Origin: Eledone cirrhosa
Taxonomy: Eukaryota
DNA: 64,000 nucleotides
Assembly (NCBI GenBank): GCA_964016885.1
Contig: OZ024742.1
Span: 122,078,001-122,142,000, forward strand
Direction: 5' to 3'
Within the stretch, counting starts at the first letter, position 1. Every line of letters starts with the position of its first letter. The position numbers and the translations under genes are program-made. Positions 10,662 through 61,880 of this stretch are shown here, in pieces. The notes beneath the pieces are model-generated. The model worked only from the letters and a program-made list of their open reading frames with translations. It did not search any database and was not told the DNA's origin.

Positions 10662-12360
10662 GAAGTGTTCGCGTCTTGCCAGCACCGCTTCCGACACTCC
10701 TTCCAAAACTTTAAACCCAATATGTAACAATGTCAGACTTGAACCCGTCACCACCTCTAGCAACAAACCTAAAGGGCACACCTTACACCACATCTCCACA
10801 CTCATTGATCCACTTTAACACAAATAGTGACATCCTTCTAGAACCTTTTACCCTAGAGATATCCCCATGTACATCTACTTCAATTACTTAGATTACATTA
10901 CACCACTATATAATTAATGTAAACTTTAAACACTGAATTGGTTGTGCTAATGTTGTTCTGTGTATGGAGTGCCATCATTGGATAAATGGAAGATTAATTA
11001 ATTTATTAACATAAACGAGCTATATAACCTATATGCTGAGTGCAATGAATTATGTACAAGGGATGTATGAGTTATACATATATGTATGACTTGATGGTCA
11101 GATTAGTAACATTGTAAGTGAGAATTGATCTCTGGTCTACCCTAGTGATATTTAACTTTGCCATGCAATCAGACAGGCACTGACCCAGAGCTTACCAGGA
11201 GTTACATATAGAAGTGATTCTAATAAAACCCTGCCAGGTTCTGCGGGTAGACTACACTTACAAAGATCATTGATTTGGGGATCTGACTCTTCATGTAGAA
11301 TATCCAGTTGTGGCACTCTATGATAGAGGGTAATCACCCTAATATGAACGCCCTTAGTACTTCTTGATAGACTACACTGTAATTATAGATAGGATACTTA
11401 AATTTAAAAACTGTTTATAACCTTATATGATAGGGACTCATTTGAGACACCATTTAATGTACATTAAGATAATAAATTTAGTTATAGAAATCAGCTAGTT
11501 ACCTCCCCTCACGCATTAACTCCCCTTAATCACACACACACTTCCGGAAAATAATACGATGTTAATTCTCGCAACAAAAACAACATGCTCTATACAATTG
11601 GATTAAAGAATAACAAGCTGTAATATTCTAACATAATTCATCAAGCATCCAATATTGAATCATCGTAGATTATGTGAAGGACATATAATCTATATATTAC
11701 GTTTCCTGGATTGTGAAAATGGTGGTGTATACGAAAACCATAACATTGTTTTGCTTCTCATTTTTAATATTTTTAATATTTCTCTGCACACAAGCTTCTA
11801 TATCATACATATACAAAAAATACTTTACCAATACAACCCCCATAATACTCTTGATTGCCCGCTTAAAGTGCTTGTATTACATATAACACCCTGCCGCACT
11901 ATAATCTTATATAAATAAGACACACGTGCATGCCCCACGTGTAACTATTGCATACACTAACCACTTCTAACTATCCTCTTGCATTTTCTTCGTAAACTGC
12001 CAATGTTGTATTTTAACTTCAATTTTGTTTTCTTTTAATATGACTTTAATCTTTGAATGTAAATTGCCATGCTAAAATATTATAATGGATGTCAACCCAC
12101 TGTGCATCAATATATACATATGTTTCTGTATGTCTCTTGTGTTGGAAAGGAGGTCAAGTATGTAAACAATCATTGAACAATTGCTCCGAGGACACCTAAC
12201 CCCGGTTTGGAGAAACAATTGTCAGCGAATAAATGGTTTAAACAGAACTTTGATTCATGTAATTTCTATATAACTGCTCTGTAGAACAACTAATGTTATT
12301 ACATTGAGCTATTTATCTTACTGGTAATAAGGTAGTAATACATTATTGTCTTTCACTATT
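9348..12360 (+). mobile_element. 5'-truncated Penelope-like element (Hydra-type) with long 3' UTR and hammerhead-bearing terminal repeat
   Basis: VNFLDATL, KSNHP, FFNPPF, IKISYSTTPN, CNCR, IIY..TYIGST (GIY-YIG), KFCNLC and SCQH. Premature TGA at 10659, original stop ~10727. Hammerhead at 12181. Confidence 0.85.
12181..12228 (+). ncRNA. Minimal type-I hammerhead ribozyme variant in PLE terminal repeat
   Basis: TTGCT-CCGAGGA-CA-CCTAACC cc GGTTTGG-A-GAAA-CAATTG-TC-AGCGA. P1 TTGCT/AGCGA, palindromic P3, GUC triplet. A related copy lies at 34112-34158. Confidence 0.65.
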
Positions 12361-12427
12361 TAGGGTTTAAAATATATATAACTATAAAAGGTTTTAGTAT
12401 ATACATAACCATAAATAGTATCCTTAA

Positions 12428-12756
<329 letters not shown>

Positions 12757-12886
12757 AAACGAAGGAAGTGTGGCAAGGAACCGGGCGGACCATAATAAAC
12801 CAGTGTGCTCGATACTTTGGGTAGTAGAGTGGGAAATAGAAAAAGAGTCCAAACCCCGACGGCAGAGCTCATGTTGTTTCGACAGG
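12757..12886 (-). mobile_element. PLE-like terminal-repeat fragment with 3' half-hammerhead (family of 33905, 54053, 60013)
   Basis: Shares aacgaagga..gtggcaaggaacc..ctcgatactt..gtagtagagtgg..ccccgacggcagagctca..gtttcgac with 54053-54157 and 60013-60137. Confidence 0.7.
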
Positions 12887-15110
12887 ACGACTTTCTAATT
12901 CGCCCCACTCGCCCTCGGCCTACCCAACTCTGGCCCCGGCGAGGCGGCCAGTCTACAGCAGCTTTTGTCAACGCCAATGTTTCAACCTTTGGGCATGTGC
13001 CTATCCCAAGTGTGTCCAAGGACACCACACTCTCTGCTCCCGTGTGCCTTCAATCCGTAACCCCGAGGCCAGCGCAAAGCCTTCAAGCGACCGCTTAAAC
13101 GCTAAACGAATCATGCATTATGTCTCGGCTGCAGTTAGAGTGGTTGCCTCGGAGAACACTGTCCTACTCCCCACCGAGGATGTCCTAGTTGTCCTGCGCC
13201 TCATGCACCCTGAGCCGCCCACCGTCCTCAGACCCATACCCCACTTTATCCTCACTTGCTGTATGTTACTTCCGACGCAGACATCATGATTACTATCAAG
13301 TCCTTCCCAGTCAGCATCAGCGGAGGCACTGATGGCCTCCGATCTGGCGAATTCAAAGAGTTATTATCCCCCATCTCCGCTGAGACCGGGCGTTGCTTTC
13401 TGAGTGTAATTGTGGGACTCACTAATAGGTTTATCCATGGCGCCCTGAACGCTTCCTCCCGAGGTCTTTCTTTTTCGGCCAGCCTGACCATTCTCAGGAA
13501 GAAAGAGGGTGGCATACTCCCCATCACTGTGGGCAATGTCTTCCGGATGCTGGCTGCTAAGGTGGTCTGCAGGTCCATCACATCTGAACTGGGAGAGGAG
13601 CTAAGCCCAGTGCTGAAAGAGGATGTCCTCATCCTCGGGTCACAGATCCAACTACCGGCCATCCGCTCCACCATCAAGTCTAGGCTCCAGCAGTTCAACA
13701 CTCTTACGAGGAGACAGGACGTGATTGACGCCCACCCAGCTCGCTTCCTGTTGAGGAACTGCTTAGCCATGCCGAAGCTCCTCTACACTCTTCGTAGTGC
13801 TCCTATCTACAGCCATGCATCTCTCCTTGCTGACCTCGACATTTGTATCCGAGCAGCAGCTGAGGATATGCAATGTCAGGTTTACGAACTTGGATGGCAA
13901 CAGACCGCCTTACCTGTTGGATATGGTGGCCTTGGCCTTCGATCTCCGATCTCCCTGGCTTTGCCGGCGTTTCCTTCGTCGGTAACTTCAGGCCGCATCC
14001 TCATGAACAAGGTTCTCACAAACACAATGGAACCCACTGTGATCCAGGAACAGGAGGCCACCTGCGAAACGTAGAATCGACTTGGACGTAGCCCAGGAGA
14101 TGTCTCTTGCTTTACCCCCTTGTTGACGAAAGTTCCCCCAGAATATTTGGGATGCCACCCATTGCAATCTGGCCTTAGACAGGCTGACGCGCCACCTCAA
14201 CCATCACCACCTTGCATGTTTTCGCGTGGCTTTGCAACGCCACAGTGGCGCCTGGCTCCATGTCTATCCCTCTTTCTCTCCAGGCACGCAAGTGGACAAT
14301 GATAGCCTGCGCTTCGGGATTTCCCTGAGGCTTGGCCTCCGGATCTGTGACCCACACAGATGTCGCTGCGGACCACCATTGACTCTTTCGGTCTCCACCC
14401 TCTTTCCTGTCACTACAGTGCCGACCACCTTCCACTGCTGCTCTCAACGAGGTCATAAAGCATGACTTGGATGCTGCAGGCTTTTCCTCTCAGCTCGAGC
14501 CAGTGGTGCTGGACCGAAGGGACGGCAAAAGGCCATACGGTTTGACTATCTTCCCGTTCTACGGTGGTAAAGCCCTCGCCTGGGATGCCAGTTGCAGTGA
14601 CACATTCTCTAGTGGGAACTTGGTGCAGTCTGCGACTAACCCTGATTCTGCCGCACTTCGGGATGAGGAGGGTAAACTCTCAAAGTATCGTCGCTCTCCG
14701 ACAGGTTTACAGTGGAGATATCCGGTGTTCTTGGCCCTAGGGCTACTTCCCTACTTACCACCATAGGCGCTGAGCTGACGAGCCGCAGGTGTGAGACTCG
14801 CGAGATGGAACGGGTCTTCCAGCGCATCTTCCTTACCATCCTTCGTGGAAACGCCTTCTCCATTCTGTTCGCCGGGGTGTGGGGCGCCCAGCACGTGGGA
14901 TCCTAATGTGCTCATTATAGTGAGAGATGAGTAGGGCGAGAGAGATGGAGGCGATGACAGTGGGAGTTCGGCTCCTCTTTATTCGGACATGGTGTCCAAC
15001 AAATTGTAAAAAAATTTACAAAACGCGCAGTTAAAATAACTACGTCTATTCTACTATCCCTACAGAACTTCTATATTTGTATCAATAAAGAGGAAAATCG
15101 AATAAAACTC
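12887..15110 (+). mobile_element. CRE-clade non-LTR retrotransposon relic, 5'-truncated, RT core deleted
   Basis: IKSFP..SGGTDGLR, KKEGGILPITVGNVFRMLAAK, YGGLGLRS, HSGAWL, CRCG..H knuckle, RLE motif RRDGKRPYG..LAWDASC and RGNA. AATAAA at ~15084 and ~15101. Confidence 0.85.
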
Positions 15111-22087: not shown

Positions 22088-22668
22088 ATTGGATTGGCAG
22101 TATCGGTAGAGGGTCGGACGCCATGCTTTCCAGCATAGTTACGTCCCTTTACAATCTGAGTTCAAATCCCGCCGAGATTGACTTTGCCTTTCATCCTTAC
22201 GGGGTCGATAAAATAAAGTACCAGTAATGCACTGGGTAATTGCTGGCCTTGTGCCTAAAGTAGAAACAATTATTATCTGTGAATTGGATTGGCAGTATCG
22301 GTAGAGGATCGGACGCCATGCTTTGCAGCAAAGAGTTACAGCCCTTTATGATCTGAGTTCAAATCCCGCCGAGGTTGACTTTGCCTTGCATCCTTACGGG
22401 GTCGATAAAATAAAGTACCAGTAATACACTGGAATATTTGCTGGCCTTTTGCCAAAAGTAGAAACAATGATTATTCGTGAATTGGCAGCATCAGTAGAGC
22501 GTCAGACACCATGCTTTACAGCATAGAGTTATGGCCCTTTACGTTCTGAGTTCAAATCCCGCCGAGGTTAACTTTGCCGTCATCCTTACGGGGTCGATAA
22601 AATAAAGTACCAGTAATGTACTGGGTAATTGCTGGCCTTGTGCCAAAAGTAGAAACAATTATTATTTA
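22088..22668 (+). mobile_element. Head-to-tail trimer of a ~190-bp tRNA-derived SINE
   Basis: Three units (~22088-22278, 22283-22474, 22481-22668), each with box A-like tggcagtatcggtagag, box B gagttcaaatccc, central gcctttcatccttacggggtcgataaaataaagtacc (MetaSINE-like core) and an (ATT)n tail. Confidence 0.9.
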
Positions 22669-22751
22669 TTCCCTTTAAATCCAATTTAACCATCTTATAG
22701 ATGTCTTCTAGTGCAACATTAAACGTGTTGGATATAATTTTGCTTTGTTAG

Positions 22752-22935
22752 AGCGGTGGATTAGCAGTATCGCTAGAGCGTCGGACACCATGCTTGGTGA
22801 CATAGTTACGGCTCTTTATGTTCTGAGTTCAAATTCCACCGAGGTTAGCTTTGCCTTTCATTCTTATGAGATTGATAAAATAAAATACCAGTAACGCACT
22901 GTGGCGGATTTAATCGACTCTAACCTCCTCTAGAA
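22752..22935 (+). mobile_element. tRNA-derived SINE, related subfamily
   Basis: Same head, box B and central core as the trimer. Confidence 0.85.
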
Positions 22936-23275
22936 ACCATTATATTGCCTTGTTTTACTCTTCCTTCATTATTAACACTTTCACTTTTTGTGTGCTTTTG
23001 ATAAACTAAACTTTACCATAAAAATGATGATGTCTTTATGACTAAAGTGCAGTGTGTGGTGTATCATACCAACAATGACATATGGAACACAGATGCTATT
23101 AACAGAAAAACACGTAAAAGTAATAAAACATAGCTTCATGGAATCGACGAAGACAGAGTGAAGGGATGGTTTAGTTTATGGGTGTCATGGGTGTTATATA
23201 GAGCGGCACAGAAGATGAAGTATTAGTAACTTAAGCCGTCTTTATCTAGCAATGGTCAAATAATTAGTGAAAAGG

Positions 23276-23495
23276 ACTGGATTGTCAGTATCGACAGAAC
23301 TTCGAATAGATAGTATATTATTGCGGCATAGTTATGTCCATTTACGTTTTGAGTTCAATCCCGCCGAGCTTATCTTTGCCTTTCACACTTACAGAGTCGG
23401 TGAAATAAACTACTATTAATGTTGTGGGGTCGATTTAATAGATTTCTCACCCATCAAAATTGATGGCCTTGTGCTTAAATCAGAAAGCAATTTTA
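23276..23495 (+). mobile_element. tRNA-derived SINE, diverged copy
   Basis: gagttcaatcccgccgag..tttgcctttca..aaaattgatggccttgtgcttaaatcagaaa. Confidence 0.8.
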
Positions 23496-30729: not shown

Positions 30730-31240
30730 GTTAAAAGAATAGAGGTGTAACACACAAGTTATTATATATTGGTAAACGGAATAGAAAAGCTGACAAATTG
30801 TTCACAGTTGAAAAATGGTTTAATTAGGAATAAAAGAGTACTAGTGATTGTATGGGTTAGTATTCAGTTGTGGTTTTAAGTTTTTAAGTTTTTACCGGTT
30901 GCGCATTTCTAAATGCTTTTCAAAAATAATTTTGAGATAGAGTGTCCGTGCTGTTTGCTCTGATCTGATTAGTTTTGGGAATTCTTCCTGTTTTTATGTT
31001 AAAAAAGTGGCTCCAGCGTTATTTTGGTGTTGCAAAAATGCTTGTGGTCAAAACAATTTTGATTGGTCGGTAGAGGTCATGTGAATGTAAAAAGTTGATT
31101 TTGCGCCAAGACTGTTTTTATGTTAAAAAAGTGGCTCCAGCAAAAATTCTTGGTCAAAACAATTTTGATTGGTCGGTAGAGGTCATGTGGATAAAAAATT
31201 GATTTTGCGCCAAGATTGAGAAATGACTCTTTCACAACAA

Positions 31241-31471: not shown

Positions 31472-33494
31472 CAGAGTAATTCGATGGTCAGTAAGAATGT
31501 GTCTGAAAGCAATGGGGGGTATTTTAGCATGTCAACAGATATTTTTCAGCTTTTGTTTTATACGAAGAAGTGCGTGTGTGTGTGTGTGTATAAGTCTCTT
31601 TGTATGTTGATGTACGCGTGTGTATGTGTTTGTGTATATATATATGTGTGTATGTGTGTGGGTGGGTATTTTTTTCCCCCTGGTAAAATGGTGTACATTA
31701 TTCGATTTTTTCAGTAAAATCGGTTCTCTTAATAGAACATAAAAAATCTTAACAATAAAAGGTGTGAAATGATATTCACTATATATATATACACATACAT
31801 ATATTCACTACATATATATATATATATATATACATATATACATACATATATATGCACATATATTTTTTTGTATTGCACCATAGAGCATGTGTGTTTACGT
31901 GTGTCATTGTGTTTATATGTGGGTAGAGATGTGTGCTGATGTAGGTATGTATGTTGACGTGTGTATGTTGTGGGTTCGTCTTAGGGAGAAGTGATTAGAC
32001 GGGGTCCGTATTTGTTAAAGAAGTAAGATTCCTTGCTGATGCGCTGGGTGTGGGTGGCATTATCTTTAAATTTGTAGAGGGGAAAGATTCTGAAGTTGGG
32101 ATGATTTTGGGCGGCACAGGTATCAATGTGTTCACTCAGTGGTATTTTCCTGTATTCCCGTATTTTAATTTGGGATCTATGGACAGTCATGCGTTGGCAG
32201 AGGCTGTTTTTGGTCTGGCCTATGTATTGTTCTCGACAACCTGAACAAGTTAATACATATATTAGATTTTCCGATGCACATGTGAAATTGTGTTTTACTA
32301 TAAAACGTTGTCCATCTTTGAAATAGAATTCCGAACACTCTATTAGGTTGATGCAAATGCCACAGTTGGGTCTATCGCATTTTTTTACTGTGGGTTTCGT
32401 TGTTGTGGTTGGCAGTACTTTGGCATGTGTTAAGATGTTTTTCATTGACTTGGATTGTCTTTTGCTCTTTATGATATCGTGTGTTCGTAGAATTTGGTTC
32501 ATTCTATGGTCCTTTTTCAATACAGGCATGTTCTGGAGGATGGTGTCAAATGCCTCATTGTTGAGGGGGTTGTGTGTGGAGATGTATGGAAGAGCTTTTA
32601 GTTTTGGTTGATTTACTTTAGGGTGTCTAAGGTCCTGGGTACTGAGTTTTAGGGCACGTTGGATTCCATTGTCAATTAGTGATGCAGGGTAGTCCCTGCC
32701 TATGAGTGTGTCCTTTAGTTCTTGTAGCCGTAAGTAGCAGATGTTTTTATTGGAGACTATAGTACAGATTCTCTTGGCTAAGTTGTAGGGAATATTAATT
32801 TTAACGTGTCTAGGGTGGCAAGAGTTGAAGGGGAGATATTGCTTGGAGTCTGTGGGCTTGTAGTATATGTCTGTTTCTATTTTTTTGTTATGGATCTTAA
32901 TGAGGATGTCGAGGAAGGGGAGTTGTTGATGGCTGTATTCCATCGTGAAGTTAATATTTGTGTTGAGCCCATTTATAAGGGTGTGAAATTCTTTAAGTTT
33001 TTCGATGTTTTCGTGCCAAAGGATGAAGCAGTCATCTAGATATCGCTTCCAGTTCCTTTCAATGTGTAAGTGGAGGGTGTTTCCAAATTTGTTTAGGACT
33101 TTAGTGTAGAGGGTGATTTCCAGGTATCCCATGACTAGGTTGGCATAAAAACAGTCTTGGCGCAAAATCAACTTTTTACATTCACATGACCTCTACCGAC
33201 CAATCAAAATTGTTTTGACCACAAGCATTTTTGCAACACAAAAATAACGCTGGAGCCACTTTTTTAACATAAAAACAGGTAGAATTCCCAAAACTAATCA
33301 GATCAGAGCAAACAGCACGGACACTCTATCTCAAAATTATTTTTGAAAAGCATTTAGAAATGCGCAACCGGTAAAAACTTAAAAACTTAAAACCACAACT
33401 GAATACTAACCCATACAATCACTAATACTCTTTTATTCCTAATTAAACTATTTTTCAACTGTGAAAAATTTGTCAGCATTTTCTATTCCGTTTA

Positions 33495-33500
<6 letters not shown>
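30730..33500 (-). mobile_element. Penelope-like element (Naiad/Neptune-type), 5'-truncated, with an inverted terminal-repeat copy, inserted in (TA)n
   Basis: ~355-bp inverted repeats (30766-31120 vs 33144-33500) flank an RT-GIY-YIG ORF. There are (TA)n tracts on both sides and ~35 extra nt beyond the IR at the 3' end. Confidence 0.92.
31981..33143 (-). pseudogene. PLE ORF remnant: RT palm/thumb, CxxxxCxxC linker and GIY-YIG endonuclease, uninterrupted
   Basis: WKRYLDDCF, FTME, LPFLDI, YYKPTD, SCHP, KKCDRPNCGIC, NLIYVLTCSGCREQYIGQT and RMTVH..LSEH. The first ~8 aa of the called ORF come from the inverted repeat. Confidence 0.92.
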
Positions 33501-33532
<32 letters not shown>

Positions 33533-33904: not shown

Positions 33905-33986
33905 GCCAAGTCATGACTCAAGCCGTTTCGACGGCAGAATTAGTAGTCGAAACGGCTTGAGCTTAGCCGTCGGGGTCCTACTCGTT

Positions 33987-33990
<4 letters not shown>
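33905..33990. mobile_element. Short fold-back carrying 3' half-hammerhead
   Basis: ctcaagccgtttcgac (33917-33932) is the inverse of gtcgaaacggcttgag (33946-33961). The plus strand reads GAAACGGCT-tgagctt-AGCCG-TC-GGGG. Ends in (TA)n. Confidence 0.7.
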
Positions 33991-34111: not shown

Positions 34112-34158
34112 CACTTACAATTGTTTCATCCAAACCTAGGCTTGGTGTCTTCGGAGCA
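34112..34158 (-). ncRNA. Minimal hammerhead variant in a solo PLE repeat fragment (~34075-34212)
   Basis: TGCT-CCGAAGA-CA-CCAAGCC ta GGTTTGG-AT-GAAA-CAATTG-TA-AGTG, same family as 12181. Confidence 0.65.
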
Positions 34159-34223
34159 TTTTTCAATAAAATGTTTTAGTATATACATAACCATAAATAG
34201 TATCCTTAATATTATATATATAT

Positions 34224-36535
34224 ATTGTTATACTTGGGGAGGGTCATATTTTAGTAATAATATTGCCAGATATAATAACGAGACACTCACAGTTTGATTG
34301 GTTTTCGCTTCTGTATCTTTTATATCTCCACAGCTAATTAATTTGGTCCTCAATGTTTATCATTGACTGACCAACGGTAAAGAATACAGATATAAACACA
34401 TATATATAGTCTAACAAAGTTCTTTCGTTGCACTTCTGCAACATCATAAGTGGTACTATTATGTTCATCCTGTTGTATTGTATGACTACGGCATTTTTAT
34501 TTTATCCGTAGTTAGATCTGTATGTTTGTAAGCATAAGACAAAGCCTTATTTAATAGGTTAGGTGTAATAGAAGAATAATAGCTTGCTATGGTTAGCATT
34601 TCTAATGAACCGTAAATCATTCATGCATTTATGTATTTGTGTATTTATTCTTTTGGAGTATGTTAGTTTTACGATTCAGGATGTTTGATTTATATATTTA
34701 TATTTATATTTATTTATATATATTTATGGTATATGCGTCGCACACGATGCTAGTCGATGAACATTTTCCACTTAACTTGATGTAAAACTTCAATTATAAC
34801 TTTACTAACAATGATTGTATTTATTATTTATTATATGTATATGGATCACTAATATCGTCTTGAGTTCCGAACAGAATACTCTATGTATATTTGGACAAAT
34901 GTGTATATCTAGTATAATAACATGCTTCTAGCTACATTTATAAGTACTTTAGATACTTAAGGACATTCTAGTGTTATAATTGTTAAATATTTTCTAAATT
35001 ATATAACGATTATTATTTTTTAATTTAATTAAATTTGGATTACTTTCGGGTCAATGAACATCTTAAGTTTTCTCTTTCTCATGCTTTCAGACACTTTAAA
35101 TATGATATTGTACTACAATATAGATCCTTTAAAATGTTCTTGTATTTTTAAATCATATAGCTTAGATATTTGGCACTTTTATGATCGCAAACAATTTACT
35201 TTTTTACTTTTAATCTGGTTCTTATCCTTATGATTCATGAAGTTTGATTTGTATATATATAGTATATATGTATTACGTGATCCTAATATAATAACTTTAA
35301 TTTTTAACAATATTAACAGTAACTTATTTATTATATTATATTATATTAAGTTATGTATAACTGACTAATATCGTCTTGAACTTTAGACAATATGTTCTTT
35401 GTATATATATTTAGACAAATACATATATCTAATTTAATAATAACCTTTTTTAAGTTTAATTATAAGGCCTTTAGATACTTTAAGGCATTCTAATTGTTAA
35501 TTTTTAATTTTTAAAGTTATAACTGTAATTATTTTCTAAATTATATAATGTGAATTATTTCAATATAAAAATCTTTTTTTAATATAATATAAGATAATAT
35601 TATTTAATATGGATTACCTTCGTGAGGATGAAAATATTAGTATTCCTTCTCATGTTTGCAAATACTTGAAATATGATTTTATAAATTAAATATGATAGTA
35701 TGCTTTAATATTAATATATATATTTATAAATTTTATAGCCTGAAATATTATACATTTTGATTAATTCATTATTCTAAACTAACATAAATGATTTGAAATT
35801 TAACGGTCAGCCGGATACGTTTGGATATATATAGTGTTTATAATTAATTGTTAGTATATTTCTAATTAACTAAGGACTCGAAATTAAACCCTCATATAAT
35901 TACACCCAGATATATTTAATATTTACATTGATGGATACTTATAGATAATTCAATAATTCAAAGATTCGCGTTTACTCTTTCACAAAGCTATGCCTAAATC
36001 TATATTCATTTGTTTGTATAGATATATATAATTTTTGCATTATCTAATCGCACCCTATTCATCCACGACAATACAAACCCCCTCCCTATGCTTTATACTA
36101 TAAAAATTATTACTCCTTGTCTCTCTATCCTTGATCAATTCTCTTTTGTTTTCTATACTTCTAGTAATTATATTTTCTCCTCATCTGTTTCTCTCTCTGT
36201 CTTTCTTCTTTCTTATTTCATCAATAATTTAAATTAGTTGAGTCTCTAACAATTATCTAAATTGCTATTATGTATTTTTAAGCTTTATCACACGCACCAT
36301 CTGTATTATATGTAAATATTTTCATGTCTCAATCGTAAGGTATATACATATTGAGTTTTGTCATATCTTATTCACTACCATGACTCAATCTTAACCATAT
36401 ACTATGTCATGCATCATCTTATTTAATCTGATGAGGACGTACTGTTGAAGTTAGCTCAGTACCTCTGAAATATGTATAATAAAATATACTTGATCACACG
36501 AATGTCTATTTTTGTTAATATTTTGAATTAATACT
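34224..36535. mobile_element. AT-rich PLE-derived non-coding block with outward-facing hammerhead-bearing ends
   Basis: The left end matches the 26-kb terminus, with a decayed hammerhead at 34413-34454 (-) (CTTATGA-T-GTTGCA gaag TGCAAC-GAAAGAACTT). The right end has a hammerhead at 36421. Internal diverged duplication ~34790-35170 vs ~35290-35745. Confidence 0.55.
36421..36484 (+). ncRNA. Type-I hammerhead ribozyme, slightly decayed
   Basis: TTTAAT-CTGATGA-GGACGTACTG..CAGTACCTCT-GAAA-TATGTA-TA-ATAAAA. The 3' part is identical to the 53374 copy. Confidence 0.7.
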
Positions 36536-36593: not shown

Positions 36594-36624
<31 letters not shown>

Positions 36625-36661
36625 TATATTGTTATACTTTGGGAGGGTCATGTCAGAAATG

Positions 36662-42888: not shown

Positions 42889-44020
42889 GTCCAGTTAGAC
42901 ATTGCGTTGAAAACTGCAACAATTGGATTATCTACATATCTAAGGGAATCACATGATTGGATGATCAAACTCGTTTTGAAACACGAAAGCATCAAAAGAT
43001 CGTATTCCATTACCAAAGATGCACAAAGATACAGTAATGGACTACAAATTTCAGAAGTCCCATTTACTGCTGAAATGGAAAACACAGAAAAAGCAAAGCA
43101 GGCAAAAGTAACTGCAAAGAAAGAACTGCTACAGAAACTGGCTAAGAAATGGCAAGAAAAGCCTCTGTATAGAAAATAACCAGAACCAGCTAACAATCCT
43201 GATGTTGACAAAACTTTAACCCATCAGTGGTTGGTATCCTCTGGACTGAAATCGGAGACTGAAGGACTGATTATATCAGCACAAGATCAGTGTCTGCCAA
43301 CAACAAATTACCCAGCCAACATAATAAATAATGGATGCAGCCCATTATGCCGTGTATGCAAAAAACAACCAGAGACCATTGACCATATAATTTCAATGTG
43401 TAGTCCTATAGCTCCAACCGAATACCCAAACAGGCATGACAGAGCTGCACACTACATACATTGGATAATGTGTAAGCATTTTGACCTGCCCCATCAAAAG
43501 AATTGGTGGGAGCATCAACCACCTCCCATACTTCAAAAAAATCACATCTCAATCTTGTGGAACTTTAGCATCCAGACCGAAAAATATATGCAAATAGACC
43601 TGATATACTATTGAAGGACTTTAAAAAGAGGGTATGCCTGCTAATTGATATGTCCCTTCCAAGACAAGAATGTATCTATAAAAACATTTGAAAAATTGAG
43701 CAAGTATAAGGACCTGGAGATAGAAATTGGAAAAATGTGGAAATTGAGAACTAAAACAATACCAGTGGTTGTAGGCGCTCTGGGAATGATACCTAAGGGG
43801 TCTAATGATAAGAGAAATACAAAAGATAGTACTAATGGGAACTGCCCATATACTAAGGAAGATTCTGTCAATATAAGTACATCACAAGTCTAAACACTAA
43901 AGATGCATGTGTGAGTATGTATGTTCTTTCTTGAACATGGCGGACCTTGTTGTCTCTTGAGGTCACTGGCTGTGACTTGATGATAACTCCTATGAACATA
44001 AATCAAGATAAATGCAACTG
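42888..44020 (+). mobile_element. R4/Dong LINE family A, 5'-truncated copy (CCHC, RLE, 3' UTR)
   Basis: Near-identical to 1-680 (-). CRVCKKQPETIDHIISMC, NRPD and EKLSKYKDL..VVVGALG. (TAA)n on both sides. Confidence 0.92.
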
Positions 44021-48920: not shown

Positions 48921-48940
48921 AATAATAATAATAATAATAA

Positions 48941-49190
48941 TTGTTTCTACATTTGGCACAAGGCCAGTAATTACTCAGTACATTACTTGTACTTTATTTT
49001 ATCGAACCCGTCATGATGAAAGGCAAAGTTAAACTCGGCTGGATTTGAACTCAGAATAGAAAGGCCCGTAATTCTATGCGTCAAAGCATGGCGTCCGACC
49101 CTCTACCGATACTGCCAATCCAACAATAATAATTGTTTCTACTCTTGGCATAAGGCCAACAATTATCCCAATGCATTACTGGTACTTTAA
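48941..49190 (-). mobile_element. tRNA-derived SINE (48941-49123) plus 3' fragment of a second copy (49124-49190)
   Basis: Reverse complement of the 22-kb SINE. Its (ATT)n tail is the Dong (TAA)n tract. Confidence 0.9.
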
Positions 49191-49309
49191 TAATGATAAG
49201 GAGAAGGATGCACGTAGCAATATAACATCATTAAGTTAAGTGTGTGTTTGTGAATGCATGTATGCGGTTATATATATATGTGTATTTCAAGGAATTATTA
49301 TCATGTGCA

Positions 49310-49499
49310 TGATTGGCAGTATCGGTAGAGGGTCAGACACCATGCCTTGCAGCATTGCGTTACGGCCCTTTTATGGTCTGAGTTCAAATCCCGCCGAGGT
49401 TAACATTGCCTTTCATCCTTACGGGGTCGATAAAATAAAGTATCAGTAATACACTCGGATAATTGCTGGCCTCGTGCCAAAAGTAGAAACAATTATTAT
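49310..49499 (+). mobile_element. tRNA-derived SINE
   Basis: Near-complete match to the 22-kb units. Confidence 0.92.
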
Positions 49500-50979
49500 C
49501 ATGTGCAATATAAACATTATGTTCATTAAGGCATGTTACTTGAACCGATAATATCTGTAACAATTCATTGAAAAAATAATTTCCTTCGCCATATCTTTTA
49601 AATCCGGTGTTTATGAATCTAATAAGGTCTCAGTTGTAAACGGGTTTTAGCTTAACTAAAATACGCAGATAACATTGCGTCAGTCTGTTGTATGTATTTA
49701 TTTTAACACTATAACTAGACCGACTTTTATTTTATCACGGCTAATATCACATGAATACCAAGCAAATATATTCCTGTATGATAAAGTTTTGAATGGAGTA
49801 GAGAATAAATGAATGCAATTTCAAAATAAAAGTGTTACTCGAAGAAAGATTATATGATTTCAAACTTAGATAGCAGTTAATTAAATAAAAAATTGTAAAA
49901 TGAATGTAAGAGTTCGAAATAATACACGAGGAGTTGAATAATGTTATGTCAGCAGTTGCAATGAAATTTGTAAATACGAAAACCTCCAAACATTAATTGC
50001 AACATTAATGCCAACAAATGCATTGGCAAGAGGTTGCTTTGACGTGCAGACCCCTTTTAAAATGATTGACTCTAGTAAGATTGTCATTTACTACGTGTTA
50101 CGATCGAACGAAATAAATATAAGTTTGTAAAGGTGATGCTCGGGCCGAACTATATATATATATAATGGATTATCGAAGCGCTGTGTGATTTGAAATTTGA
50201 AAATGTGGGAGTTCCAAACGCAGAAAAAGCTGTTATTACATTCGCTGGCTGTAAATTATAGATTATTCTCTAGACCTTCTAACCATACAGCTTCAATATT
50301 GAACTCGTCATTTGTTTCCCATATTAGATCTTTTGCCGGGGCCCCTTTTACAGACATTGTGCTTTTCATATTGAAGCTAGGATAGATTGACTTGTGGTCT
50401 CTGGCAAACAAATTATGCGGCATTTACCGTTTATATGCTGCAGATTTATTTTATAGTTTTTCAGCTGTTGCTGTGAGTAGTTTCAGTTTGGAGTTTAGGG
50501 TTTAAAATCATGAATCTTCAAATCACCTCTTAAGTCTTCATAGTGTCATGTGAAATTCTTGTTTGAATTACATTTCATAACAACCGTGATCACTGGGATT
50601 CTTCTCCACTGGAATAAAATGTTATTTTGTAAGTTGCGTGCCTATACTGGTTTAACTGTTCTGCTTGTATCTAGATTGTGTGGCTTTAGTTCCCCACAGA
50701 ATGCCAGGAATGTGATAGCTGAGACATATATCAAACGTTTTATGGTATGGTTGTTTGTATAGCTCTGGAATGTGTAGCCTTCAGATAAGCGTCTGCTATT
50801 TCATTTACTAACTCCAATTCTAATTGATGGCCGAAAAAGGTGAACAAGCGTCACCTGGTGAGTTCGAGTGAAATGGGGGACGCAAGTCCAATTTTTCCGT
50901 CAATGGGGTCTTATATACCTCACGTTTAAAGCCTATTTTTCATAGGGAAAATTCTGCGTGGAAGATATTAATTTTAAGC

Positions 50980-53238: not shown

Positions 53239-53330
53239 GCAAGGTTATATTTAATTTGTTAGGCTTCAACAAGCTTAAACATTTTTATAGCTGATATAAA
53301 GCACTCAACAGTTTAGTGAAGTAAATACAC

Positions 53331-53559
53331 AATATATTAATAAATGGAAACTATATTTTTAAAACCATATTTATTTTATTATACATATTTCAAGGGAAAC
53401 CAAGGCAAATTATGGTGCGTTTTCATCGGATAAAATACAGATTTGTTTTATAAACAAATCTGTATTTTATCTGATGAAAGCTTACCATAATTTGCCTTGG
53501 TTGCCCTTGAAATAAATATAAAATAAATATGATTTTATAAATATAGTTTCCATTTATTA

Positions 53560-53566
<7 letters not shown>
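53331..53566. mobile_element. 236-bp fold-back palindrome of a PLE terminal repeat, one hammerhead per arm
   Basis: Apex at ~53450 (atttgttt ta t aaacaaat). Hammerheads at 53374-53435 (-) and 53465-53523 (+). The arm is homologous to 54262-54378. Confidence 0.88.
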
Positions 53567-53599
<33 letters not shown>

Positions 53600-54052: not shown

Positions 54053-54219
54053 AACGAAGGAGTTGTGGTAAGGAACCAGAGTACTCAATACTTAGGTTAG
54101 TAGAGTGGATAATAGGAGAAAGTATAACCCCGACGGCAGAGCTCAATCCGTTTCGACGGCAGAGCTCAAGAAATAGCCGTCGAAACGGCTTGAGCTCTGC
54201 CGTCGGTGTCATACTTTCT

Positions 54220-54224
<5 letters not shown>
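54053..54224. mobile_element. Short fold-back element with two inverted 3' half-hammerheads, in (TA)n
   Basis: IR 54112-54224. The plus arm reads GCCGTC-GAAA-CGGC ttgagctct GCCG-TC-GG. Confidence 0.8.
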
Positions 54225-54257
<33 letters not shown>

Positions 54258-54262
<5 letters not shown>

Positions 54263-55823
54263 ATATTAAATAAATGGAAACTATATTTATAAAACCATAT
54301 TTATTCTATTATATATATTTCAAGGGTACCCAAACTTTGGTACGCTTTCATCAGATAAAATACAAAGTTTGTTTTATAAATGTTGACATAACCAAGAAAA
54401 AGGTACCTTAATGGTTCAAGTTTTCCTTGGATAGTGAAGGGATAAGAGAATAGAAGTCAGATATTTCAAATTATTAAGATGAGCATGCAAATGAGGTTGA
54501 GGTATAGGGCTGAAAAAAAAACGTTATTTTAGACGCTATGCAGAATTTAAATAATTAGGATATATCTATGTATGAGTAGGAAGAGGAAAAAGGAAGAAGA
54601 GTTTGTATTTACATTAATTTAAAACGAATTAACAATTTGGGGGAATGGTGGAATATGATTCCAGAATTTAAATTTATTTAGCTATATTATGAGTTATAAT
54701 ATATAATCACTTAGATTATATGAAGAATTAGGGTTGTAAGTATATTTTATCTTATTACATTACAATAGGTTATAAGTATATAAATATCTATATAGATTAA
54801 TAATTGTGCATGTATAAGTATTATAGAAATAGAAATAATTTACAATTATTAGTTGTTTACATTTCTAATATGAGTTACGAAGGACGTTGATTTTGCATTT
54901 TACATTAAAAAAAACAGGTGGTTTAAGTTGTAAGAGGAGAACAATTTGTAGATTCGAATATTTTGTTCCAACATTGAAAATGTTTCCAGAATATTGTTAA
55001 TTTAGCGAAGTTATATAGTTTATTGTACATATTATATTATATCATGTTTATGTTTGCACGATCGAAAAGGGAAAGATAACTCCAATCTCGTTTGTTAACC
55101 GTTAAATTTGACGAATGATTTACTTAGAAAATATATAGAGAAAATTATATATTATTTTGTGTGAGATTAATTATTTTAGTCGAAAGATGTGTGAAAGTTT
55201 GAAGATCAAAAGGAGAGGAAAAACGTAATGTGCATTTCGAAGAACTATTGTAAAGAGGATAAATTTTTAGAATGTCAATTAAAGATTATCAATCTACATC
55301 TAAAATAATATATTTAGAGGAGTATCATTAGTAAAATAATAATGTCAGAAATAAAATATATTAAAAAATATATATATTTAAAAAAATTAATGTCAAAGGG
55401 TAAAAATAGTAGAAATATTAAAAAATTAAGAAGGAACATCATTTAAAAGAATTTACATTTAAATTAAAATTTAAATTTTTAAAGAAAATAGGATCATTTG
55501 AAGGTGTATAAGATATAGTCAAGTGTAAGGAATATCATAAATTAAAAATATTTCTGAAAGTGGAATTTTAGCGATGTCTGCAAGAAGAAAATAATTCTGT
55601 TTTAAGATTAATAGAGTTTTGACAGTTAATTATATAAAACATTTCCTCGATACACAAGTTACAGAATCTTGAGAAAGCCATATTCCGGTATGCAGGTGCT
55701 TTCGAAATTGTTCCCCAAGATATTGAATAGTCTATATTGCTGTCTTTTAAGTTCGAAATTAAATGTGAAAGTGAAAAGTAGGATTTTTTATCGGATCTCT
55801 TAAATGTGTGCTTATGGTTATAC

Positions 55824-55895: not shown

Positions 55896-58800
55896 AAATA
55901 AAGATCCAAAGGCATGGTATACATTTCCAATCATTATAATCACGACAAATGTTTCAATAAGAGATAGATCGATTTTCAGGTGAATAAAGAATTGTCTTCA
56001 AATCTTTGATATGACGGAGGAAAAACTAACGATGTTCACTCACTAGAGTTCTGTTCCCCATATGAAGATTCAACAGCCAAAACACGCCAACTGCTATCGT
56101 CTTCAGTCAGGGTCATAAATCTATCAAGTCTCTATCTCTCAAAAGCTGTAAAAGACGCTGGACAGGTCTAATCTCAACATAAAATCTGTAGAATTTCGGT
56201 CGGTCACAATTAACGTGAGTGAGTACACACACACTCACACGCACTGGCGCGAGGTCAGAGAACAAAAATATATACCAACATAGTATGAACTGAAAGTTAG
56301 GTTACAAAACAACAAATGTTATATTGGTCAAATCTCAATTTTAACGATGTAAATTAGAAAAATTGGGTCAACCACAACCCTATACACACGCAAGTAAATT
56401 CCGTTCAACGTTCTGCTATACGTGTATCGATCGAATTGTAACATCCGTATCGTATAAATTGTGTATCTTTTTGTATATACACATTCATGTGTAGAGCAGG
56501 TAGTCAGCTCGTATCGAACTCTGTATGTGCCGTTGTCCCGTTGAGAATATGAGTCCCCGAGTCTGTGCGTGCAAGCACCCGCCATGTAGGCCACCAAGGA
56601 GCCCCATGTAGGGTTGTGTATTTGAGTTAAGGTGTCAGTGTGTGCGTTTTCCCCTCATATGGGCCCTCGGGCTTTTAAGATAAGTGTTTGAGTTGTGGAG
56701 GTGTGTTACCCAACACAAAAATAAAAATAAAATAAAATAAAATAAAATAAAATAACAAAACCCCGGGGATGTGTGTAAGTGTCATGGGCCCATTGATGGT
56801 GTGTATGTAGTATTGTCCATTCAGCAACTGTGAGTACTCCATGGTTAGAGGATCACAGACCAAAAACCTAGTGTAGTATTCAATTGATAAGATCGTGACT
56901 AGTCATAACTGTGGGAACTCCGTATCTAAAGAAACCGAGGACTGTGTGTAGTATTATGTATAAAGAGCGTAATCGTTTTTAACTGAGTGTGTAATACGTC
57001 TAACTATTTACTAACTGAGAGAACTCTATGGTTAGGGTATTCTAAAGTAACGGTAAGTGCGCGTAATCAGTCTTAACTGAGTGTGTAATTGTTCTAACTA
57101 TTTACTAACTAGGAATTCTAAAGTAATGGTAAATGTGCACTCAGCTGTGAGAACTCTGTGGAAACATACCGACTACCGTGTATAAGTGCGCAAACGATCT
57201 TAGCAGTCTACTACCCGAGTGTGTGATTGTCTATCTTTTGCTAACTGAGAGAACTCTATGGCTAAGATAAAAAGGGTGGAGTTAGTGGTAGGTTACTTTC
57301 TAAAAATCCGGAGGAAGATTTTCGAGGTTCTATGCTGGCAGGTGCTGAAAAAGTCCGCTCTCCTATTGATTAGTAGGGGGGGGGGGGCTCTAATTATTTA
57401 AAAGGTTTCAGCTATCCATAAATTACAAACGCCCGTGTTGCCGTTATATGGCTAGGCTGAGCAAACTATGGACCAGGATAAGTAGTGCTCTATATTCTGT
57501 TGTTTAAGCTTCCAGACTAATTCAGAAAGCGTCGTGCTATTTTTTTTATCTAATCTATTAAAGGTATTATACCATATATCCTTAAATTCAGTGGCGGTCG
57601 CCCCAACATACCTTAACGTTCTATCTAAAGTGGAGACCTTACAGTCGTAGACTATGTTTTTGGTGAAGAATTTCCCAGCCAAGGAGCAAGCAGCGGTGTT
57701 CCTGCAATTACATTTTCTGCTACTGACCGGGGTAGTTTCTGAGGAACCACGGTGCCTCTGGTGTCAGGTCTCAGTTCTTGTCTGCTCTATGGGTAAGTTG
57801 CCAGGGTTTGGGGATGACCCGACTCACCTCACCCGTATGAGTCCGTTCATGCATAGAATTGCCATTAGTTCTGCCATGCCTCATCCCGCCCTGGGCTGTC
57901 CTAAGTCTACTATAATTCATCTTAGCTATATTCTGAGCTATGTTACTGGTTGTGGAGTAGGACAGCTTGATGGTATTCCTATTGAATATTTTATAGTATT
58001 TGTGATGTCTAGGGAAGCATTTGTCTAAGATCCTAAAGAAAAGCTTAGCTATACTAGTGGCCAGGCCGGTGGAGAATGGGCGTTTGTACCACAGGATTTT
58101 TCTGGTTCGATGCCTCTTGTTCTTATTATCTATACTAGTGTTACCAGCCTCCATGGTTGCTACTGGTCTATTAGAACTGATAACTGCCTCTGGGTCGATG
58201 ATGCCAGGGGGTGTCCAGGTGATGTTCGGAAATGTCCCAAGTCTCCGGGGCGGCGTATCCCCCGTGCAGTTATTGGAATTACCCTCGGCAGCCGGGGTTA
58301 TATCCACTATGCGCCTACTACATTTATCCCTGTTTACGTTCTATTTTACGTTCAACGGTTGTTTTATCAGCTCTACAATTAAGGTTACAATTAAAGTTGC
58401 CGCTGGCTGTTCAGTGCTCGGACACAGTGTTTGTACCTGGGTGGTTGTTCTCATTGGTACCGTCGTCATTGGGACTAGGAGGCAATACAATATGAAGTCT
58501 ATATTGATCCTCCCTCGCCTCCCGCCTGTTTTTAACTAAAGTGTCACTATTTTGGCCTAAGCTATCGCAGACAATGTTGCTACTACTACCTAATGGACGT
58601 TTGAATGAGATTCCCTTGCTATACCCCGCGCGTTCCAGGGCGCTATTATAGTAATTTGAGATCCTATCGAATGTATCTTCATTGGAAGATAGTCCTGAAA
58701 TTCTACTAGAGACACTTTTGGTAATACCGTTAGAGATATTCTAGGGTGGTTCGATTTTGCGTTGACATAATTTAAATTCTCGTTGGGTTTGTTGTAGGGT

Positions 58801-59125
58801 GAGAAGAGTCCTGAATTGAGGTTAAGTGTAACATCTAGAAAATTAACTATCTTCAGGTTTTCTTCAAACACCATACTTAAGTGTATGTTGTTGAAGAATT
58901 TGCTTAGTTTTTTCCTCACCCTATCTACCATACTATTATTATGATACGACACAGTAAACAAAACGTCGTCACTGTAAACGCCACCTCCCAAGTGGGGCAT
59001 TTCCACTTCAAGACAGTCGAGGATGTAGAGGCCCACCGGATCCGTCACCTGGGCTGAGTCCGAGGATCCCATGGTAATGTCAAAATTGTCCGGCCAGTCT
59101 CTCTTAGTCCACAAGTCTCTGTCTA
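55893..59125 (-). mobile_element. 5'-truncated Hydra-type PLE, frameshifted, between TA tracts
   Basis: FDITMGSSDSAQV..GVYSDD, VNFLDVTL, KSNHP (58590-59186); ILWYKRPFS..IKLSYS (57771-58307); CNCRNTAAC, IVY..YVGAT (57452-57720); STCQH. Decayed hammerhead at 55939-55984 (CAC-CTGAAAA..GAAA-CATTTG-TC-GTG). Confidence 0.88.
56967..57265. repeat. ~90-bp imperfect tandem repeats in the PLE 3' UTR
   Basis: taactgagtgtgtaat..ctaactatttactaactgagagaactctatgg recurs about three times. Confidence 0.75.
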
Positions 59126-60012: not shown

Positions 60013-60205
60013 CAGATATGGTGTGGTAGAAAACCAGGTGGACCATAAGCCACCTGAGTACTCGATACTTGGGGGTAGTAGGGTGGGTAATATGAAAAGA
60101 TTCAGGATCCCGACCGTTGAGCTCCAGTTGTTTCGACAGGTAGATATGGATCTAGCTGTCGAAACGGTCGGAGCTCAGCCGTCGGGGTCCTGAATCTTTT
60201 CATAT
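60013..60205. mobile_element. Short fold-back element with two inverted 3' half-hammerheads, in (TA)n
   Basis: IR 60090-60205 with apex GACAGgTAGAT atgg ATCTAgCTGTC, followed by GAAACGGT cggagctca GCCG-TC-GGGG. Confidence 0.8.
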
Positions 60206-61067: not shown

Positions 61068-61400
61068 AGCAAATTGGCAAAGTTGTTAGAATGTCAGATA
61101 GAATACGTTCCGGCTCTCTACACTCTAAGTTCCAAACATGTCAAGGCCACCTTTGCCTTTCATCTTTTCAAGATCGATAAAATGTACTAGTCAAGCACTG
61201 GTGTCGATTTTTGCTCCTCTACATCTCTTTCTCACTTCTATTCTTTCACTCTCTATTCTTCTCTGGAAGAAATCTGCTGTGATCAGACCTAGAAAGGAGA
61301 TGGGCTCTGCCAGATTTTAAATGCTCTAGTAACGCTGTATGTCAATGCAGTGACCTCGCAAGAGTTGCTGGCCCATATATACATGGTCTGAAAAAGAGTG
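61068..61400 (+). mobile_element. Degenerate SINE with extended tail (family of 16716)
   Basis: tttgcctttcatc..tcgataaaat core followed by the ctctggaagaaat tail. Confidence 0.55.
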
Positions 61401-61429
61401 GAATACCTTTCATTATTGGTCTACTCTTA

Positions 61430-61622
61430 GGGCGGTGGATTGGCAGTATCGGTAGAGGGTCGGACGCCATGCTTTGCAGCTAAGAATTACGGCCCTTTAT
61501 GGTCTGAGTTCAAATCCCGCCGAGGTTAACTTTGCCTTTCATCGTTACGGGGTCGATAAAATAAAGTACCAGTAATACACTGGATAATTGCTGGCCTTGT
61601 GCCAAAAGTAGAAATAATTATT
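61430..61622 (+). mobile_element. Full-length tRNA-derived SINE
   Basis: Begins ggcggtggattggcagtatcggtagag, with box B, core and (ATT) tail. Confidence 0.93.
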
Positions 61623-61767
61623 GGTCTACTCGATTAAGACAGTGGTGAACAACATCATCATTGGCATGTTATACACCACTTCAGAATTCGAATTAGTTCA
61701 TTTCAAACCATCAATTTCCTCCCACCATATTCTTTGTGCAAATAATATATTATTTATCTGATAGTTT

Positions 61768-61880
61768 AAATCCCGCTGAGGTTAACTTTGCCTATCATCC
61801 TTACGGGGTCGATAAAATAAAGTACCAATAATACACTGGGATAATTGCTGGCCTTGTGCCTAAAGTAGAGACAATTATTT
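61768..61880 (+). mobile_element. 5'-truncated tRNA-derived SINE
   Basis: Starts within box B (aaatcccgctgagg). Core and tail are intact. Confidence 0.88.

What the first reader, a model, noticed from the sequence alone, without database searches (positions are those of the whole stretch)
60013..60205. Four-copy family that always breaks or folds back at hammerhead stem II (12757, 33905, 54053, 60013)
Seen: all four copies sit next to (TA)n and carry the 3' half of a type-I hammerhead (stem II 3' strand, GAAA, a stem III hairpin with a GAGCTC/GAGCTT loop, GUC, then GGGG). None has the CUGANGA half. Three continue as an inverted repeat whose apex is a hairpin directly 5' of GAAA (GACAGgTAGAT/ATCTAgCTGTC at 60 kb, GACGGC/GCCGTC at 54 kb, GAC/GTC at 33.9 kb). 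The fourth stops at that same point. The apex sequences differ between copies. Known: Penelope-like elements carry hammerheads in their pseudo-LTRs and often insert with an inverted 5' segment. Inference: nascent cDNA copied through stem II snaps back on that hairpin and primes second-strand synthesis. The ribozyme structure would then fix the inversion point, repeatedly producing ~170-190-bp MITE-like hairpins with the catalytic 5' half deleted. I am not aware of this being described.
Basis: partly seen in the sequence, partly recalled or inferred. Interest (0 to 1): 0.78.

Follow-up and report, generated by a model that had tools for sequence, protein, structure and literature searches.

The report
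Retrotransposon stubs ending at transcript start
These four repeats are stubs of a very abundant Penelope-like retrotransposon, inserted as head-to-head pairs that likely arose from two separately primed DNA copies running off a likely capped RNA start inside the ribozyme's loop, not from a snap-back on the ribozyme's stem.

Summary
The four copies are real. They are 3' stubs of a Penelope-like element with Hydra-clade motifs; the core has 40,813 exact matches in a 3.0-Gb genome. Parents exist (3,595 arms) but mostly read UUGANAA (U3-A8) around a ~40-nt loop II, so CUGANGA searches miss them. The apex hairpins are not stem II: the junction that snap-back on stem II predicts occurs once, against 12,515 short inverted loci. 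In 102 of 103 pairs one arm has the 80-nt tail and one lacks it. The tailless arm is often the longer (26 of 102) or holds sequence its partner lacks (16 events), so it is not a copy of its partner. Ends pile up at an initiator-like TYAGTY in loop II, often with an extra non-parental G, the known sign of a capped RNA end. Best reading (0.7): twin priming at two internal start sites, run-off at the transcription start, then end joining. A second family in the window inverts ~80 nt upstream of its hammerhead. No RNA data were available. Most full-length copies read through the site, which needs a second template or a jump.

The parts
60013..60145 (-). Tailed arm: 8 nt of stem II 3' side, GTC-GAAA, stem III, GTC/GGGA, linker, ~80-nt tail ending in (TA)n
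   Evidence: family structure
60146..60147 (.). 2-nt insert at the inversion junction
   Evidence: L001
60148..60205 (+). Tailless arm: 10 nt upstream of GTC-GAAA, core, linker ending at the proximal TAT site into (TA)n
54053..54160 (-). Tailed arm (19-nt internal deletion in the tail), ends 3 nt upstream of GTC-GAAA
54161..54168 (.). 8-nt templated insert, a slipped copy of stem III sequence via the repeated GACGGC
   Evidence: sequence
54169..54224 (+). Tailless arm, begins 10 nt upstream of GTC-GAAA
33918..33935 (-). Remnant of the inverted arm (part of stem III to -3); its 3' part is missing
33936..33990 (+). Tailless arm, begins 10 nt upstream of GTC-GAAA, ends in (TA)n
12757..12886 (-). 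Single tailed arm ending 3 nt upstream of GTC-GAAA; no partner; abuts unrelated repeat-like sequence

Best explanation
The copies are 3' stubs of a Penelope-like retrotransposon (RT plus C-terminal GIY-YIG) joined head to head, one tailed and one tailless arm, and they likely form when the element's protein primes two cDNAs, one on each strand of a (TA)n target, that run off a likely capped RNA 5' end inside hammerhead loop II and are then end-joined. Shown: element anatomy, the tailed-plus-tailless rule, independent apexes, the pile-up of 5' ends at the A of TYAGTY 15 nt upstream of GTC-GAAA, and the extra G there. Inferred: (1) this A is the transcription start of the pseudo-LTR promoter; (2) the two TAT sites, 17 and ~97 nt after the cleavage site, are the two RT start sites; (3) both cDNAs (~60 and ~140 nt) usually come from one RNA or one source; (4) their 3' ends are trimmed by a few nt and joined with 0-4 nt microhomology or short templated inserts. 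The 5' catalytic half is missing because the template RNA never had it.
For: Element: ORF of 710 aa with RT and GIY-YIG motifs upstream of a full hammerhead arm (L185); pLTR-tail-ORF order in 22 of 30 ORF-start loci. Tailed plus tailless in 102 of 103 pairs (pool from several searches) and 52 of 52 in the least-selected pool (3 rows mis-paired there, redone by coordinates). Independent priming: tailless arm longer in 26, tailed longer in 37, within 2 nt in 39 of 102; 16 events with a tailed arm ending before the core joined to a tailless arm holding it. Same subfamily tail in 51 of 54 informative pairs against ~15% by chance. Two RT start sites bounding the tail, and nicking and extension of both strands, were shown in vitro for the anole element (PMC11167929). 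Edge: longer arm ends at 13-17 nt in 55 of 102; of 141 arms 125 reach -8, 19 pass -22, 16 keep the full ribozyme; read-derived contigs have 65 loose ends at exactly this A (place 1334). TYAGTC in 50 of 57 full arms, TATTTA-like box ~30 nt upstream in most. Extra G: 6,310 purine-AGTCC arms, 87 G to 13 A in the first 100 rows; G at that place in 1 of 57 full arms, 11 of 63 truncated arms; in 30 loci 11 of 26 G cannot come from partner, template or target, 0 of 4 A (sorted by eye; p about 0.001). Untemplated 5' G marks cap copying in L1 and SVA (PMC4859970). The Penelope pLTR holds its transcription start (PMC8557442).
Against: No RNA evidence: no run on record as RNA holds the sequence. At the upstream pLTR of near-full-length copies, 21 of 24 long cDNAs read through the site, 1 stops at -14 and 2 stop at the cleavage site (6 of these loci look like segmental duplicates), so a second template class or a template jump is needed. 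The partner arm offers G more often than A, so 87:13 overstates the cap signal; 12 of the 26 G are compatible with the partner or a templated insert. Many arms end at -8 to -14, which needs trimming. The same TTYAG also fits a 3' splice acceptor. One subfamily group lacks the TATA-like box. In family 2 the edge is sharp but no G excess was seen in the few cases (2 G, 2 A). Initiator and TATA consensus are recalled, not from a call. Three of 54 pairs have discordant tails, so one RNA is not universal.
Confidence: 0.7

Rival explanations
1. Twin priming as above, but the cDNAs stop at an obstacle in a longer RNA: the U-run in loop II with ribozyme refolding behind the RT, a bound protein, or a splicing intermediate at the TTYAG acceptor-like site.
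For: TTYAG after a pyrimidine run is kept in all subfamily groups. A second helix can form at -13 to -19 in one parent (L061). T-runs abut the site in 3 junctions (L073, L077/L101, L172), as RT stutter would give. Penelope has an intron in this region (PMC2377424).
Against: Does not explain the extra G. 21 of 24 long cDNAs pass the site. The one candidate spliced junction has 0 matches, and no recurring exon-1 sequence precedes the AG. Parent folds are not better than shuffles (z -1.6 to +0.1). Family 2 stops far from its ribozyme.
Confidence: 0.14
2. One reading: cDNA copied through stem II snaps back on that hairpin and primes the second arm.
For: Breakpoints do cluster beside stem II. cDNA snap-back is documented for R2 insertions (PMC11371274). 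Short snap-back inserts occur in a few junctions. Arms of a pair are usually the same subfamily. In long insertions the tailed arm is mostly the longer.
Against: Predicted junction: 1 match against 12,515 loci. Inner arms are the reverse complement of the loop's 3' part, not the stem II 5' strand. Tailless arm longer in 26 of 102; 16 events where it holds what the tailed arm lacks. Apexes with no loop at all exist (L101, L104, L129).
Confidence: 0.03
3. Long palindromic insertions lost their centres after insertion and shrank to the present size.
For: Long head-to-head insertions exist (arms 0.2-3.5 kb); perfect palindromes are unstable (established knowledge); junctions show microhomology.
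Against: Gives no reason for a sharp edge at one base, for the extra G, or for a gap between -22 and the full ribozyme (3 of 141 arms). Single arms without a partner end at the same place (L077, L243, L259, L261).
Confidence: 0.05
4. The short hairpins are a self-copying family (one or few master MITE- or SINE-like copies).
For: Some apexes recur (e.g. one 24-nt spacer in L105, L113, L139, L181). Copies keeping the +1 A could be transcribed if the promoter is internal, as in Penelope (PMC2377424).
Against: 97 distinct spacers in 102 pairs; the same spacer occurs with the tail on either side (L100 vs L102) and with different subfamily tails; arms are asymmetric; no target duplication can be read in (TA)n.
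Confidence: 0.05

Closest known systems
Hydra-clade Penelope-like elements (PMC8557442; passages read)
   Same: C-terminal GIY-YIG, RWK-like motif (RWR), DKT, CxCX5C linker, no CCHH, CxxC and CxH, hammerhead in the pLTR, (TA)n targets, inverted 5'-truncated partner, tail at one end only.
   Different: Tail ~80 nt rather than the 30-40 nt given there for PLEs; most insertions are ~200-bp stubs with a shared 5' edge; ribozyme has a ~40-nt loop II. Those passages describe no such edge.
Poseidon PAc of Anolis (PMC11167929; parts 1-2 of 4 read)
   Same: Two internal RT start sites bound the tail; both target strands nicked and extended; AT-rich target; uncleaved RNA used as template.
   Different: That work found no strand difference in start-site use in vitro; here genomic pairs use one site each in 102 of 103 cases. 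It maps no 5' run-off edge.
PLE hammerheads, U3-A8 variant of Schistosoma Cercyon (PMC4209133; parts 1-2 of 4 read)
   Same: Type I, U3-A8 core, short stem I, long stem II with unpaired bases near its base, palindromic loop III; pairs on opposite strands 100-700 bp apart were noted.
   Different: Stem III is a full 5-bp hairpin, loop II is long and likely holds a promoter; a C3-A8 mismatch group is common (8 of 57).
L1 twin priming (PMC4859970; passages read)
   Same: Two primers from opposite target strands give an inverted 5' part with small indels at the junction; untemplated G marks the cap.
   Different: L1 inversions do not overlap (recalled); here most arms overlap over ~55 nt, and both start sites are fixed.
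Minus-strand strong-stop DNA of LTR elements (recalled)
   Same: Short cDNA primed near the RNA 5' end that runs off the cap.
   Different: Here primed by target DNA, in two copies, with no tRNA primer; transfer to the 3' repeat is not shown.
R2 snap-back junctions (PMC11371274; passages read)
   Same: cDNA 3' end can prime on itself before joining; seen here as short inserts.
   Different: Does not account for the second arm.

Membership tests
Penelope-like element, EN+ | Single ORF with RT and C-terminal GIY-YIG endonuclease | tested here: met
   710-aa frame in L185 with YRDD (340) and VIY..YIG (583); Pfam GIY-YIG only E 0.069, below cut-off, no Pfam hit on the whole protein; 402 homologues at E<=1e-20, none usefully named
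Penelope-like element, EN+ | Partial tandem forming pseudo-LTRs with a hammerhead | tested here: met
   pLTR-tail-ORF junction in 22 of 30 loci
Penelope-like element, EN+ | Inverted 5'-truncated partner and tail at one end | tested here: met
   102 of 103 pairs
Hydra clade | RWK, DKT, CxCX5C linker, no CCHH, CxxC and CxH, (TA)n target | tested here: met
   RWR 27 (variant), DKT 109, CNCPDRSIC 564, one Cys only between GIY and YIG, CNLC 662, CKH 690 (criteria)
Hydra clade | Groups with named Hydra elements in an RT tree | not tested
   no named reference sequences in hand
Type I hammerhead (parent) | Core YUGANRA and GAAA, 3-8 pair, G10.1-C11.1, three stems, GUC cleavage triplet | tested here: met
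   92% of cells paired, 4 pairs with changes on both sides, all from one divergent copy, 15 of 500 shuffles as high (8 copies); U3-A8 47, C3-A8 8, U3-G8 2 of 57. No Rfam hammerhead hit on the half copies in the window
Type I hammerhead (parent) | Self-cleavage | not testable with these tools
   indirect only: arms ending at the G-run after GUC in 4 of 16 short events (microhomology could also explain) and 2 of 24 long ones
MITE | Symmetric terminal inverted repeats, uniform master, target duplication | tested here: not met
   asymmetric arms, 97 distinct spacers in 102; target duplication unreadable in (TA)n
Snap-back on native stem II | Junction of the stem II 5' strand complement to GTC-GAAA | tested here: not met
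   1 match (context not examined) against 12,515
Pol II core promoter / capped RNA start | Initiator at +1, TATA-like box near -30, untemplated G in copies | tested here: met
   consensus motifs recalled; box absent in one subfamily group
Pol II core promoter / capped RNA start | Transcripts begin there | not testable with these tools
   no RNA holder listed
Retrozyme | Tandem non-autonomous units with complete hammerheads, circular RNA | tested here: not met
   stubs are head-to-head and lack the 5' half; circular RNA untested

The most novel reading that the evidence does not exclude
Penelope-like elements make a strong-stop cDNA like LTR elements do. The promoter sits inside hammerhead loop II and splits the ribozyme; the protein primes near the RNA 5' end at two sites, one per target strand; the cDNA runs off the cap and must jump, through the 41-nt repeat between the start and the cleavage site, to a 3' pseudo-LTR to continue. 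Successful jumps build pseudo-LTRs and full copies; failed ones leave tens of thousands of head-to-head stubs, a fossil record of the intermediate.
Probability: 0.3. Interest if true: 0.8.

Novelty: new variant of a known kind. Interest (0 to 1): 0.6.

Why it matters
How Penelope-like elements build their tandem and inverted insertions is an open question; PMC8557442 says so, and PMC11167929 leaves the steps after first priming unvalidated. This family gives genome-scale constraints: each insertion uses the two start sites once each, the arms are primed separately, and most cDNAs end at one base that looks like a capped RNA start inside the ribozyme. That yields direct tests (5' RACE, in vitro run-off and jump assays). 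It also warns annotators: such hairpins look like MITEs or microRNA precursors but are retrotransposition by-products, and CUGANGA searches miss the parent ribozyme.

Tried and rejected
CUGANGA search for parents: 46 heterogeneous hits, mostly chance flanks; the parents use YUGANAA. Rfam scan of the window: no hammerhead, only repeat-driven microRNA hits below cut-off. Splicing from one candidate donor into the AG: 0 matches; other donors not tested. Fixed distance from the proximal start site: family 1 tailless arms are ~58 nt, family 2 ~185 nt, so rejected; my first reading of the 53-kb copy (note) was wrong on arm length. Loop II pairing with the tail: seen by eye in two subfamily groups, not in a third; dropped. 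Free-energy folding of six parents gave no signal over shuffles. No RNA holder listed. Contigs of four coded runs did not bridge the 60-kb apex at 97% identity; contig depth steps up 15-fold across the edge but is not a copy number. Arm extents are inflated by chance matches to several parents (values 19-22). Earlier findings: three look-ups returned nothing. The host looks like a cephalopod to me (recalled repeat style); not tested.

Full report
Observation. The four copies are present. A 25-nt core pattern finds six arms in the window and none in 100 shuffles. Aligned, they share GTC-GAAA, stem III, GTC, the G-run and a linker; three also carry an ~80-nt extension. Positions below count upstream from the G of GTC-GAAA. 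The arms end at -8/-10 (60 kb), -3/-10 (54 kb), -3/-10 (33.9 kb) and -3 (12.76 kb), so they are near each other but not at one point. Rfam gives no hammerhead hit in the window.

Family and parent. The window lies in a 3.0-Gb genome. A 30-nt core has 40,813 exact matches. Only 46 have CTGANGA 3-33 nt upstream, with unrelated junctions. Flanks of the matches showed the real parent: CCCC, then YUGANRA, G10.1, a stem II 5' strand, a loop of about 40 nt, the 3' strand and GAAA. That pattern has 3,595 matches. Among 57 distinct full arms in my loci the core is U3-A8 in 47, C3-A8 in 8 and U3-G8 in 2; one further copy (L092) is C3-G8. On 8 copies the hammerhead structure pairs in 92% of cells, with 4 two-sided changes, all from the one divergent copy. 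U3-A8 is a described PLE variant (PMC4209133, parts 1-2 of 4 read). Upstream lie ~1.2 kb of UTR and a 710-aa frame with RT and GIY-YIG motifs (L185). Its motifs match those given for the Hydra clade (PMC8557442 passages). Pfam support is weak and no tree was built. In 22 of 30 loci found with the ORF start, a pLTR with the core and tail precedes the ORF.

Test of the snap-back idea. Short inverted loci (30 nt or fewer between the two GTC) number 12,515. The junction predicted by snap-back on native stem II, written for the two commonest subfamily groups, has 1 match. The inner arms are the reverse complement of the loop's 3' part. In 103 pairs gathered from all my loci (several searches, not a random sample) 102 have one tailed and one tailless arm, and 97 of 102 spacers are distinct. 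In the least-selected pool it was 52 of 52, three rows of which were mis-paired and redone. The tailed arm is longer in 37, the tailless in 26, and they are within 2 nt in 39. In 16 further events the tailed arm ends before the core and is joined to a tailless arm that has it. A copy cannot be longer than its template, nor gain a tail, so the arms were primed separately. They mostly share a subfamily tail (51 of 54 against ~15% expected), which points to one RNA or one source, with a few exceptions such as L124. In the anole element the tail lies between two internal RT start sites and both target strands are extended (PMC11167929, parts 1-2 of 4 read). Here both 3' ends fall at a TAT that merges into (TA)n. 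I infer one start site per strand. Junctions show 0-4 nt microhomology or short inserts; some inserts are local snap-backs of 7-12 nt, as seen for R2 (PMC11371274 passages).

Why the ends cluster. Of 141 arms, 125 reach -8, 19 pass -22 and 16 keep the whole ribozyme (extents are inflated by chance matches). The longer arm ends at 13-17 in 55 of 102 pairs. Read-derived contigs show 65 loose ends at exactly -15. That base is the A of TYAGTC in 50 of 57 full arms, an initiator-like motif (recalled consensus), with a TATTTA-like box about 30 nt upstream in most. The parent has T or C just 5' of this A, G in 1 of 57. Genome-wide 6,310 arms have a purine there, G in 87 of the first 100 rows (counted by eye). 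The partner arm supplies G more often than A, so I sorted 30 loci by eye: 11 of 26 G cannot come from partner, template or target, 12 can, 3 abut flank; all 4 A can. L247 and L072 have the extra base on both arms. An untemplated 5' G is taken as copying of the cap in L1 and SVA (PMC4859970 passages), and the Penelope pLTR holds its start site and an internal promoter. So the edge is likely the capped 5' end of the RNA, and shorter ends are trimming during joining. A smaller set ends at the G-run after GUC (4 of 16; 2 of 24), as cleaved RNA would give, though microhomology could do the same.

Control. A second hammerhead family sits in the window at 53.3-53.6 kb and 54.2-54.4 kb. It is also a PLE (63% identity to the first over 248 aligned residues of the C-terminal part in L267) and pairs tailed with tailless in 28 of 30 rows (one locus counted twice, 2 rows tailless on both sides by my filter). 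Of 30 best-hit arms, 7 continue upstream and 23 stop within about 15 nt of an A 82 nt upstream of the ribozyme (the query required reaching about -75). Stem II cannot fix that point. No G excess was visible there (2 G, 2 A).

Against my reading. There is no RNA evidence. At the upstream pLTR of near-full-length copies 21 of 24 long cDNAs read past -15, one stops at -14 (L199) and two at the cleavage site (six loci look duplicated). An RNA starting at -15 cannot template that, so there is either a second RNA class (read-through, tandem or circular, as proposed in PMC4209133) or a jump of the run-off cDNA to a 3' pLTR. The jump is the novel case and is not shown. The TTYAG also fits a splice acceptor; one candidate spliced junction has 0 matches.

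Novelty. PLE hammerheads, inverted partners, tails, (TA)n targets and pLTR promoters are known. I found no description of the one-site-per-arm rule, of a shared cap-marked 5' edge, or of a start site inside a hammerhead loop in searches. That library lacks most subscription papers; Repbase, Dfam and all supplements were not read and may bear on this. Verdict: real, a new variant of a known kind, with a different mechanism from the one proposed; interest 0.6.

Noticed in passing
window 53322-53575 (plus tail to the left) and 54245-54380: Second PLE family with a canonical CTGATGA hammerhead and TA-rich stem III; head-to-head, tailed plus tailless; family-wide 5' edge ~82 nt upstream of the ribozyme. 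The window's 53-kb pair inverts ~25 nt upstream of the ribozyme.
   Followed up: yes
window 9375-10715 (+), 57311-59123 (-), 55556-55816 (-): Remnants of other PLE open reading frames, 31-45% identical to P0001 in pieces.
   Followed up: no
L069, L152, L165 and others: A common subfamily has C3 with A8, a mismatch expected to impair cleavage, yet it spread (8 of 57 full arms).
   Followed up: partly
L073, L077, L172, L245: Long T-runs (A-runs on the cDNA) abut the -15 edge, suggesting non-templated or stuttered addition at the cDNA end.
   Followed up: no
L190, L212; L064, L119, L130, L133, L136: Arms that end at the G-run after GUC, the predicted cleavage site; possible trace of cleavage in vivo.
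   Followed up: partly
L192, L196, L208: Three upstream pLTRs end within about 15 nt of each other, 105-120 nt upstream of GTC-GAAA; possibly a second start site.
   Followed up: no
window 12886-15000: GC-rich sequence with RT-like coding remnants, shared with L171, L108 and L182 at 75-81%; a different repeat abutting the 12.76-kb arm.
   Followed up: no
window 22090-23406, 48936-49502, 61107-61838: Abundant ~150-200 bp SINE-like family, some copies in tandem or inverted.
   Followed up: no
window 1-680 and 42890-43569; 30763-31122 and 33144-33504: Two long, 97-98% inverted repeat pairs, 42 kb and 2 kb apart.
   Followed up: no
window 12378-12430, 34140-34300, 36608-36660: Another (TA)n-embedded repeat family with two different ends facing TA runs, possibly a third PLE.
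   Followed up: no
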